The position numbers are program-made. A stretch of 64,000 nucleotides of DNA from Escherichia coli. GTDB lineage: Bacteria; Pseudomonadota; Gammaproteobacteria; Enterobacterales; Enterobacteriaceae. Every line of letters starts with the position of its first letter. The stretch's first letter is position 1. The stretch is from NCBI RefSeq assembly GCF_030013205.1, contig NZ_CP122648.1. One strand, given 5' to 3'. Shown here in pieces: positions 36,001 through 39,000 of the stretch.

Positions 36001-39000
36001 AAGAAGAAAATTACCCTGGAGCCACAGTTTCTGGGCGACAAACACATCATACCGAATGAACGAACTATCAATAATCTGGTGATCGTCGAAGTAAAGCCTG
36101 AATTTCAGAGCGAATTTAGAAACATCGTCCTTCCTGAAATGGTCGAGTCGCTCAAAGTAGAGAAAGGCGTGTTAGCCATGTATGCCGGTACAGATTCAGA
36201 GACTCCAAAACGCTGGTATTTCTATGAGATTTACGCCAGTGAGGAGGATTATCAACTGCACCGACAAACGCTGCACTTCCTGGATTACCTCAGGCAAACG
36301 GCGCATATGAGCGCCAGGAAGGACGCAATCCCGGTAAAACCGGTATTTCTTCGTAACAAAGGCGGAATCAAACAGGAGCCGCAACGTTGACCAGTAAGGA
36401 TTAACATGAAAAGCGTACTTGCAGCAGCGGCTATGTCGCTTGTTATTTCTGATTTTGCCAATGCTGAGGAAACAAGAGGTAAAGCTATGATGAAAATAGA
36501 ACCGTCAGCGATTTCGGAAGCTGATATTCGTTCCGTCTCACCGGCTCTCGCGCGCTTTGGTCGCGAAGCTATTACTGAAGATCTGTGGACACGCGACGCC
36601 CTCTCACCGAGGGATCGTAGTGTGGTGACCGTCGCCATGCTGATTGCCCGCAACCAGCCTGCCGAGCTTAAGCACTATATTGACGTCGCTCTCGATAGCG
36701 GCGTGACGCCAGCGGAATTATCAGAAATCATTACCCATCTGGCGTTCTACTCAGGTTGGCCAAATGCAATGTCAGCCGTCAGCGTGATCAAAGCAGTATT
36801 TGAAACTCGTGGCGTCACGGCAGATGCACTTCCTGAAGCTTCTCCGGACCTGCTTCCTCTCAATCAGGAAGCAGAAAAGCAGCGTTCAGAGACAGTGGAA
36901 AAAAATGTTGGCCCAATATCTCCAGGCCTGGTTAAATTCACTGCTGATCCACTCTTCCTGGATCTCTGGCAAAGACCCGCGCTGAAACCCCGCGACAGAA
37001 GCCTGATTACGGTCAGCGCCTTAATCGCATCCGGACAGAGCGCGCAGATTGGCTATCACCTCAATAGAGCAATGGATAATGGACTTTCGGTGAGATCGTT
37101 ACCCAGGCCGCCTTCTATGCTGGCTGGCCAAACGCATTTACCGCTGCTCCGGTTGTGGGAGAGGTGCTAAACAATCGATCATCGAGTAAAAGGTAACATT
37201 ACTGAACACTAAAACCTGACGCACATCACAAAATTAGAACGATCAGTTCATGAACCAACAGACGTGACATCGAGTGATTTATGGACAGCGTTTAACACAG
37301 TTATGAACCAAAACTGAGTTCATAACTGTGAGTTTGAATCGTCATTTGATTAATATCCATTTAAAACAGTTTGTTATGCTGTTTCTGGTGCTGAAGTCAA
37401 TTATGTATATCCCTCAAACCCAGAATAGTTAAATGGAATTTGAGTGATGCGAAGCGATTTTACGGTCGTCGTTATTACTTCAGGGTTCCAGAACATAAAG
37501 CCTCTCCTCTTTCATGATTGGCCTGTGCATACCTGATATAGGCTGGCTGGTATGCAGGTTTGCCGTTTGCCGCATCTTCCCTGCGTTGAAGAGTCAGGCT
37601 GGCAAACCGCGTGCAAATGAACACCCCCTCTTTCCATCAACAATTCAGACAGCTTGCGGGAATGAGTCCACTCCGGTATCAGAAATGGCTACGCCTCAAT
37701 GAAGCCAGGCGACTGATGCTGAATGAACATTACGATGTCACCACTGCAGCCTATGCTGTCGGTTACGAAAGCTTATCCCATTTCAGTCGGGAATATTCGC
37801 GGATGTTTGGAGAGTCACCTAAGAGAGATATTACCAGGTTAAGAAAGTCTGTCGGTCAGCTTTAATAAACCCTGCACTTATCTGTTTAGAGCAATTCCGT
37901 GTTAGTTACACCAGGCAAACATTAACCATAGCTAATGTTTTATAGCCATATAAACCATTGGCCGCTCTTGACCTTTCCTGACACTTCCCTTGTTCGCAAT
38001 AATATTCTGTTTAGTCGCTGTTTATAAATAACATGCATAATGAAATCGTAATGTTATTTAGCGACATAAAATGTCTTTGCAAATACTCTCTACAACAAGT
38101 GCTGCAATAAACTTGTTGTGATTAGGTGTCCTTGTAATTTAAAGATATTATCGTTCTTCGTGAAATGTAATAACCCTGGAACTATATTCTCAGGGCAATA
38201 TCCCATCAAGAATGATTCTTGTTTTATAAGCAATAACAGAATGACTTAATTGTTAACTTTCTTTATTCAGCTACTTAAATATAAATTTTGGAGAATTATG
38301 AAACTCAAACATGTCGGTATGATTGTCGTTTCTGTGTTGGCGATGTCGTCTGCTGCGGTAAGCGCAGCCGAGGGTGATGAATCAGTAACGACCACTGTTA
38401 ATGGCGGTGTTATTCATTTTAAAGGTGAAGTGGTAAATGCCGCTTGTGCGATTGATTCAGAATCAATGAACCAAACGGTTGAGCTGGGTCAGGTCCGTTC
38501 TTCTCGTCTGGCTAAAGCGGGTGACCTCAGCTCCGCCGTTGGCTTCAATATCAAGCTGAATGATTGTGATACCAATGTTTCCAGTAATGCAGCTGTTGCA
38601 TTCCTGGGTACTACTGTCACCAGTAATGACGACACATTAGCGCTTCAGAGTTCAGCGGCAGGCTCTGCCCAAAATGTCGGTATTCAAATTTTGGACCGTA
38701 CGGGTGAGGTATTAATACTTGATGGTGCCACTTTTAGTGCTAAAACTGACTTGATTGATGGCACGAATATATTGCCGTTCCAGGCTAGATATATTGCTCT
38801 CGGGCAGTCAGTAGCTGGTACTGCAAACGCTGATGCGACCTTCAAAGTTCAATATCTATAATTCAATCTTAAGGTGGCTATACGTCATCTGAAATTGAAA
38901 CAGGGTGTGTGTGGCATGGCTACGCACACCCGAGCAATTCACCAATGTTCATCTCATTATTAATGAGGAATAGTTTGTGTTTTGGAGCGGTATGAAAAAA

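What the first reader, a model, noticed from the sequence alone, without database searches (positions are those of the whole stretch)
36406..37196. Late frameshift in the tandem-CMD gene replaces the last conserved CMD motif
The first CMD repeat ends with the conserved ...LAFYSGWPNAM motif. In the second repeat the listed ORF runs into unrelated sequence (SVRSLPRPPSMLAGQ...), while the neighbouring frame encodes the expected EIVTQAAFYAGWPNAFTAAPV. A single-nucleotide indel near 37085-37090 is implied.
Basis: seen in the sequence. Interest (0 to 1): 0.3.

Follow-up and report, generated by a model that had tools for sequence, protein, structure and literature searches.

The report
13-bp deletion pseudogene of CMD gene
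A small accessory E. coli gene for a probably periplasmic two-domain CMD-family protein has been broken by a real 13-base deletion shared by the pig edema-disease lineage of E. coli; it is an ordinary pseudogene that public annotation already flags.

Summary
It is a 13-bp deletion (TGTTGAGGAAGCT) between window 37088 and 37089, measured against the intact 804-nt allele. It removes four codons (VEEA) and shifts the frame. The product keeps 228 native residues, gains 26 unrelated ones and ends at 37170. The native C-terminus (GEIVTQAAFYAGWPNAF...SSSKR*) survives untranslated in the neighbouring frame, 37089-37196.

The deletion is not an assembly error. Seventeen complete E. coli genomes carry it, all from pigs or wild boar in at least five countries. 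Two of them are typed O139:H1 ST1. The exact 254-aa product is also on record for 110 contigs. About 450 other E. coli genomes have the intact allele, and orthologues in Enterobacter and Klebsiella all have the intact 267-aa form.

RefSeq already annotates the identical locus as a "frameshifted" pseudogene with the same coordinates. The surrounding accessory operon is decaying too: its LysR regulator is frameshifted and an amidohydrolase gene is fragmented. The most likely reading is recent, probably neutral, lineage-specific gene loss. Interest is low.

The parts
36406..37196 (+). Whole pseudogene: tandem-CMD (carboxymuconolactone decarboxylase family) gene carrying an internal 13-bp deletion.
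   Evidence: RefSeq annotates the identical sequence in K_EC180 as a 'frameshifted' pseudogene at exactly these coordinates. Pfam CMD scores 95.2 bits in two stretches.
36406..36465 (+). Likely Sec signal peptide (MKSVLAAAAMSLVISDFANA). This is an inference from the sequence pattern only.
   Evidence: N-terminal K, a hydrophobic core and A-N-A before EE. Homology to PDB 4g9q starts only at residue 25.
36406..37089 (+). Native coding part, codons 1-228. It holds the complete first CMD domain and about the first two-thirds of the second.
   Evidence: Identical to the intact allele WP_000843776.1 up to S228. The second domain covers Pfam profile positions 3-55 of 84, against 3-82 in the intact allele.
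37088..37089 (+). Deletion junction. Thirteen bases (TGTTGAGGAAGCT) present in intact alleles are missing between these two bases.
   Evidence: Alignment A1 of the window, CFSAN018748 (intact) and K_EC180; coordinates. The placement is unique and has no junction microhomology (read).
37090..37170 (+). Out-of-frame tail: 26 non-native codons (VRSLPRPPSMLAGQTHLPLLRLWERC) plus the TAA stop.
   Evidence: This tail is absent from all 267-aa orthologues.
37089..37196 (+). Remnant of the native C-terminus, now out of frame (GEIVTQAAFYAGWPNAFTAAPVVGEVLNNRSSSKR*). It carries the conserved FYAGWP motif.
   Evidence: Identical to residues 233-267 of the intact allele.
35695..36390 (+). Upstream operon partner: tandem ABM ('putative quinol monooxygenase') gene, intact, also with a signal-peptide-like N-terminus.
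29974..30871 (-). Divergent LysR-family regulator of the same accessory island, frameshifted at a C8 run (30405-30412).
   Evidence: Split ORFs 29974..30450 and 30377..30871. Compared with intact alleles. Annotated 'frameshifted' in K_EC180, W13-16 and ETEC1748.

Best explanation
This is a genuine, recent, lineage-specific pseudogene.

Shown:
- In an ancestor of the pig-associated E. coli group that includes O139:H1 ST1 edema-disease strains, 13 bp were deleted from the last gene of an accessory operon.
- That gene encodes a two-domain CMD-family (AhpD-like fold) protein with a signal-peptide-like N-terminus.
- The deletion removes V229-A232 and shifts the frame, so the last 39 native residues are replaced by 26 unrelated ones.

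Inferred:
- The lost residues are predicted to form the last two helices of domain 2 and carry the invariant EIVTQAAFYAGWPNAF motif.
- Domain 2 therefore cannot fold normally and the protein is inactive or degraded.
- The loss is tolerated because the operon is dispensable. It is absent from about 90% of complete E. coli genomes and already crippled in this lineage.
- The gene is the last intact gene in its operon, so no polar effect is expected.
For: - The 13-bp deletion is exact and is the only difference from the closest intact alleles over 1001 nt; the 98.7% identity is the gap alone.
- Seventeen complete genomes share it. All are from swine or wild boar, and the ones whose records I read come from South Korea, Japan, France, Belgium and the Netherlands.
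- Carriers differ from the window by 0-5 mismatches over 15 kb, against 9 over 11 kb for the closest intact strain and about 140-150 for others.
- W13-16 and P15-25 are O139:H1 ST1 (PMC8798679).
- The exact 254-aa product is on record for 110 contigs in 146 collection blocks.
- The E. coli, Enterobacter and Klebsiella orthologues I aligned are all 267 aa with an invariant E230-L259 segment.
- The intact protein aligns end to end with the solved tandem-CMD chain 4g9q, E = 8.5e-74, and the lost segment corresponds to chain residues about 234-267.
- The Pfam match of domain 2 falls from 66 bits (profile 3-82 of 84) to 35 bits (3-55 of 84).
- The same island carries a frameshifted LysR regulator and a fragmented amidohydrolase gene. 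Sub-lineages add IS66 and IS2 insertions.
- PGAP already calls the gene 'frameshifted'.
Against: - No expression or protein data exist. Domain 1 (residues 54-129) is intact, and a truncated product with residual activity cannot be excluded.
- The structure prediction for the intact protein was low confidence (mean pLDDT 56.8). The helix assignment of the lost segment rests on that weak model, on the internal repeat and on the sequence match to 4g9q.
- Whether the loss is neutral or selected was not tested.
Confidence: 0.9

Rival explanations
1. Sequencing or assembly artefact: the gene is really intact in the source strain.
For: K_EC180, the closest complete genome, does carry homopolymer-length differences from the window that look like assembly errors.
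Against: The lesion is a 13-nt deletion of complex sequence, not a homopolymer slip. It is identical in 17 complete genomes from independent projects, two of them PacBio RSII. It is also present in further assemblies, including a Logan assembly of a public sequencing run. The window and K_EC180 disagree at homopolymers but agree here.
Confidence: 0.01
2. Single-nucleotide indel.
For: The net frame change (13 mod 3 = 1) is what a 1-nt deletion would give, and the position is right.
Against: Alignment with intact alleles shows 13 missing bases and four missing codons (VEEA). About 450 E. coli genomes span 133 nt where the window has 120.
Confidence: 0.01
3. The gene is still functional. Either a -1 ribosomal frameshift near the junction restores the native C-terminus, or the 254-aa product works through its intact first CMD domain.
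For: The native C-terminal frame is open from 37080 and undamaged, with no substitutions against the intact allele. Domain 1 is complete.
Against: No X XXY YYZ slippery heptamer lies in the 37080-37095 interval where a shift would have to occur (sequence read directly). Any restored product would still lack VEEA at the start of a helix. All orthologues are simply in frame, so nothing is conserved that would point to recoding. The undamaged downstream frame is explained by how recent the event is. The operon's regulator is also frameshifted.
Confidence: 0.05
4. Adaptive loss: inactivation of the CMD gene, and of the operon, was selected during specialisation of the ST1 edema-disease clone to the pig gut.
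For: The deletion is in every carrier-lineage genome examined, and at least two further lesions hit the same operon.
Against: A single clonal origin explains its presence throughout the group without selection. Other lineages show different, independent decay of the same island, for example the GATase-AKR deletion in CFSAN018748 and truncated matches in A_5 and STB20-1. That pattern fits relaxed selection. No phenotype is known.
Confidence: 0.05

Closest known systems
PDB 4g9q, deposited as '4-carboxymuconolactone decarboxylase' (269-residue tandem-CMD chain)
   Same: The intact allele aligns over residues 25-262 with E = 8.5e-74. Both CMD repeats align, and so do both ...ITHLA(F/Y)Y(S/A)GW... 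motifs.
   Different: The window allele lacks the segment matching chain residues about 234-267. In the E. coli protein, repeat 2 has TQAAFY where 4g9q has THLAFY. No biochemical function is attached to either protein in the data I saw.
PcaC, 4-carboxymuconolactone decarboxylase of the beta-ketoadipate pathway (TIGR02425)
   Same: Same Pfam family (PF02627) and recognisable similarity (113 bits for the intact allele).
   Different: The score is below the equivalog cut-off (155.7). The protein is a tandem of two domains with a signal-peptide-like N-terminus. Its neighbours are AKR, KefF-like oxidoreductase, DJ-1/PfpI-like and ABM genes, not pca genes.
Intact E. coli allele WP_000843776.1 (267 aa) and its 267-aa orthologues in Enterobacter and Klebsiella
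   Same: Residues 1-228 are identical. The DNA over 1001 nt is identical apart from the 13-bp gap.
   Different: The window allele has the 13-bp deletion and a 26-residue foreign tail.
Ordinary lineage-specific frameshift pseudogenes in host-restricted E. coli clones
   Same: A late frameshift, present throughout one clone, in a dispensable accessory operon that carries other lesions.
   Different: Nothing distinctive. The only detail is that the lesion is a 13-bp deletion without junction microhomology.

Membership tests
CMD family, Pfam PF02627 (AhpD-like fold) | Significant match to the CMD profile above the gathering score | tested here: met
   95.2 bits against a cut-off of 23, in two stretches.
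CMD family, Pfam PF02627 (AhpD-like fold) | Both CMD domains complete, as in the tandem orthologues and in 4g9q | tested here: not met
   Domain 2 covers only profile positions 3-55 of 84 (35.4 bits), against 3-82 of 84 (66 bits) in the intact allele.
PcaC equivalog (TIGR02425, 4-carboxymuconolactone decarboxylase) | Score at or above NCBIfam's curated cut-off | tested here: not met
   113.2 bits (intact) and 90.2 bits (window) against a cut-off of 155.7.
PcaC equivalog (TIGR02425, 4-carboxymuconolactone decarboxylase) | Genomic context of beta-ketoadipate (pca) pathway genes | tested here: not met
   Neighbours are LysR, DJ-1/PfpI-like, AKR, amidohydrolase fragments, a KefF-like oxidoreductase, AKR and ABM. 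No pca genes are present.
Frameshift pseudogene | Reading frame disrupted relative to intact orthologues, with loss of conserved residues | tested here: met
   The 13-bp deletion replaces the invariant E230-L259 segment.
Frameshift pseudogene | Lesion reproducible in independent assemblies, so not an artefact | tested here: met
   Seventeen complete genomes, and 110 contigs with the exact product.
Frameshift pseudogene | No functional product | not testable with these tools
   This needs proteomics or a phenotype. Here it is only inferred from the loss of the last two predicted helices of domain 2.
Programmed ribosomal frameshift | Frame change conserved among orthologues | tested here: not met
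   All the other E. coli, Enterobacter and Klebsiella members I aligned are in frame at 267 aa.
Programmed ribosomal frameshift | Slippery heptamer at the shift site | tested here: not met
   No X XXY YYZ motif in 37080-37095...T GGA CTT TCG GTG AGA... (sequence read directly).

The most novel reading that the evidence does not exclude
The 13-bp deletion, together with the poly-C frameshift in the LysR regulator, marks a selected shut-down of a periplasmic redox or electrophile-detoxification operon during adaptation of the O139:H1 ST1 edema-disease clone to pigs. Alternatively, the 254-aa product keeps a function through its intact first CMD domain. At the least, the junction could serve as a clean PCR or k-mer marker for this clone.
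Probability: 0.05. Interest if true: 0.3.

Novelty: already known. Interest (0 to 1): 0.07.

Why it matters
It matters little. The result corrects the description of the lesion from a 1-nt indel to a 13-bp deletion and shows that the lesion is real, not an assembly error. It also places the window in the pig-associated E. coli group that includes O139:H1 ST1 edema-disease strains.

A practical by-product is that the junction GGACTTTC|GGTGAGATC occurred in 17 of 5,426 complete E. coli genomes, all from swine or wild boar. It could therefore serve as a lineage marker. The function of the operon itself is uncharacterised. It comprises a DJ-1/PfpI-like protein, two AKRs, a KefF-like oxidoreductase, a signal-peptide-bearing tandem ABM and the tandem CMD. 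That operon would be the more interesting target, not this lesion.

Tried and rejected
- **Register comparison with K_EC180.** I assumed the window was K_EC180 itself, but a direct comparison failed. BLAST then showed 99.97% identity with homopolymer and 8-nt indels, so the window is a sister strain.
- **marR frameshift.** The frameshift annotated in K_EC180 is absent from the window, where marR is an intact 144-aa ORF. It has no bearing on the finding.
- **Deletion mechanism.** No direct repeat flanks the deletion. There is only a weak 10-nt inverted repeat, 90% complementary, whose 3' arm overlaps the deleted bases in the intact allele. This is too weak to support a mechanism.
- **Structure prediction.** The AlphaFold2 model of the intact protein, built from 8 close orthologues, was low confidence (mean pLDDT 56.8). 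I used it only for approximate helix boundaries and ran no fold search.
- **RNA families.** The Rfam scan of 29000-39000 found nothing.
- **Promoters and terminators.** The scan of 35400-38300 gave counts close to those of shuffled sequence and no terminator after the gene.
- **Literature search.** The first search failed on term syntax.

Full report
**Observation.** The ORF list shows a 254-aa ORF at 36406..37170 (+) ending ...NRAMDNGLSVRSLPRPPSMLAGQTHLPLLRLWERC*. Its first CMD repeat carries ...EIITHLAFYSGWPNAM. Pfam finds the CMD family (PF02627) at 95.2 bits in two stretches. The neighbouring frame from 37089 to 37196 reads GEIVTQAAFYAGWPNAFTAAPVVGEVLNNRSSSKR*.

**Nature of the lesion.** A megablast of 36300-37300 against 5,426 complete E. 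coli genomes found the locus in 497 of them. Nearly all spanned 1014 nt where the window has 1001. Aligning the window with strain CFSAN018748 (intact, WP_000843776.1, 267 aa) and K_EC180 shows one difference only: 13 bases, TGTTGAGGAAGCT, are missing between window 37088 and 37089.

In the intact allele the codons read GGA CTT TCT GTT GAG GAA GCT GGT GAG ATC (G L S V E E A G E I). In the window they read GGA CTT TCG GTG AGA TCG. The deletion takes out the third base of the S228 codon and the four codons VEEA, then shifts the frame. Its placement is unique and there is no microhomology at the junction. A weak 10-nt inverted repeat overlaps the deleted bases in the intact allele, which I regard as no more than a hint.

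**Real mutation or artefact?** A 120-nt probe centred on the junction matched at 100% in 17 complete genomes. All the other full-length matches listed were 90.2% identical over 133 nt, which is the intact form. All 17 carriers come from swine or wild boar. They include:
- K_EC180 from South Korea
- EC556, EC571 and EC581, of which EC556 is from Japan
- W13-16 and P15-25; W13-16 is a French wild-boar isolate
- the ETEC series, of which ETEC1748 is from Belgium and ETEC6333 from the Netherlands

W13-16 and P15-25 were sequenced on PacBio RSII and typed O139:H1 ST1, the edema-disease clone (PMC8798679). The exact 254-aa product is on record for 110 contigs, spread over 146 blocks of the collection, including a further NCBI assembly and a Logan run assembly.

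The window is 99.97% identical to K_EC180 over 50 kb. Apart from three substitutions, it differs only by an 8-nt indel in marR and by single-base indels, mostly in homopolymer runs. The two sequences agree at the 13-bp junction. An artefact is excluded.

**Clonality and age.** Over about 15 kb around the gene, carriers differ from the window by 0-5 mismatches. The closest intact strain, CFSAN018748 (also a swine isolate), differs by 9 over 11 kb, and other intact strains by about 140-150. Apart from the gap there is no substitution between the window and the closest intact alleles over 1001 nt. The event is recent, and the out-of-frame remnant of the C-terminus has not decayed.

**What is lost.** The intact protein aligns from residue 25 to 262 with the solved 269-residue tandem-CMD chain 4g9q (E = 8.5e-74). 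The segment removed or replaced, residues 229-267, corresponds to chain residues about 234-267. It also matches the TPAELSEIITHLAFYSGWPNAMSAVSV... segment of repeat 1.

In eight orthologues from E. coli, Enterobacter and Klebsiella, all 267 aa long, the stretch E230-L259 is invariant. The Pfam match for domain 2 shrinks from profile positions 3-82 of 84 (66 bits) to 3-55 of 84 (35 bits). A low-confidence AlphaFold2 model (mean pLDDT 56.8) puts helices at 229-243 and 245-266. I infer that domain 2 loses its last two helices and cannot fold, so the product is inactive. This last step is inference and was not shown.

**Family placement.** The protein belongs to the CMD family at the Pfam level. 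It does not reach the NCBIfam PcaC equivalog cut-off (113 against 155.7 bits), and no pca genes are nearby. The N-terminus (MKSVLAAAAMSLVISDFANA|EE) looks like a Sec signal peptide, as does that of the upstream tandem-ABM protein. This suggests a periplasmic pair, by inference from sequence only.

**Context.** The gene is the last intact gene of an accessory island between hipA and an AraC-family C-terminal fragment, upstream of the ydeQRS-type fimbrial operon. The island reads, in order:
- a divergent LysR regulator
- a hypothetical gene
- a DJ-1/PfpI-like gene
- an AKR
- amidohydrolase fragments
- a KefF-like NAD(P)H oxidoreductase
- a second AKR
- the ABM gene
- the CMD gene

The locus is found in about 9% of complete E. 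coli genomes. In the window the LysR gene is also frameshifted (ORFs 29974..30450 and 30377..30871), at a pure C8 run. Intact alleles there read CCACCACCCC or CCACCCCCCC, and the run is C7, C8 or C9 in different carrier genomes.

The amidohydrolase gene is fragmented in every genome examined. Sub-lineages add an IS66-family insertion upstream of the ABM gene (EC556) and an IS2 in the usher (ETEC1748). Other lineages show different lesions, such as the GATase-AKR deletion in CFSAN018748. This pattern fits relaxed selection on a dispensable island.

**Alternatives.** Programmed -1 frameshifting is not supported. No slippery heptamer lies in the only interval where the native frame is open (37080 onward; a TAA at 37077 closes it upstream). 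Orthologues are simply in frame, and VEEA would still be missing. Adaptive loss cannot be excluded, but a single clonal origin explains why every carrier has it.

**Verdict.** This is a real, recent, lineage-specific 13-bp-deletion pseudogene. RefSeq already annotates it as "frameshifted" at the same coordinates in sister genomes. It is ordinary and of low interest. Its possible use is as a marker for the porcine lineage that includes O139:H1 ST1.

Noticed in passing
window 30405-30412 (within LysR gene 29974-30871, - strand): The island's LysR regulator is frameshifted at a pure C8 run. Intact alleles read CCACCACCCC or CCACCCCCCC (10 nt). Sister genomes have C7 (in frame, annotated as intact in ETEC6333), C8 or C9. 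This is either real slipped-strand length variation or homopolymer sequencing noise.
   Followed up: partly
window 33129-33805: The amidohydrolase-family gene is split into 2-3 short ORFs here and in every genome examined, including those with an intact CMD gene. It is probably an older pseudogene within the same operon.
   Followed up: partly
window 37599-37865: An AraC-family C-terminal HTH fragment (84-aa ORF; HTH_18 at 78 bits) lacks its N-terminus. It is annotated 'incomplete' in all genomes examined, so it is an old remnant at the island's edge.
   Followed up: partly
window 35665-36390 and 36406-36465: Both the tandem-ABM ('putative quinol monooxygenase') and the tandem-CMD proteins begin with signal-peptide-like sequences (MKKTFMLLICMLISSPVFA..., MKSVLAAAAMSLVISDFANA...). 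A periplasmic location would be unusual for these normally cytoplasmic families. The function of the pair is uncharacterised.
   Followed up: no
window 1076-1094, 23670, 23955, 25860, 29821, 40317, 48619: The window differs from K_EC180 by an 8-nt indel in marR and by single-base indels, mostly in homopolymer runs. In the window, marR (1036..1470, 144 aa) and the fimbrial usher (39976..42627, 883 aa) are intact, whereas K_EC180 annotates both as frameshifted. The single-base differences look like assembly errors in K_EC180; the marR indel could be a real mutation there.
   Followed up: yes
window ~22977-27777: The ECSE_1600-family autotransporter gene gives only a 1431-aa ORF from 23482 in the window. 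It is annotated as frameshifted in K_EC180 and CFSAN018748, so it is possibly another pseudogene.
   Followed up: no
L007 4025-6640 (EC556) and L008 13128-14356 (ETEC1748): Some carrier strains have secondary IS insertions in the same region: ISCro1 (IS66 family) truncating the start of the ABM gene, and IS2 splitting the fimbrial usher.
   Followed up: no
L001 4760-4797 (intact allele; corresponds to window ~37059-37088): A 10-nt inverted repeat, CCTCAATAGA / TCTGTTGAGG (90% complementary, 18-nt loop). Its 3' arm overlaps the 13 bases deleted in the window. It may have contributed to the deletion, but this is speculative.
   Followed up: no
E. coli genome search: Eight of the 500 matching places for this locus are on records labelled as plasmids, and a few genomes hold only partial matches (A_5 53%, STB20-1 20%). 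This points to further independent rearrangements of the island.
   Followed up: no
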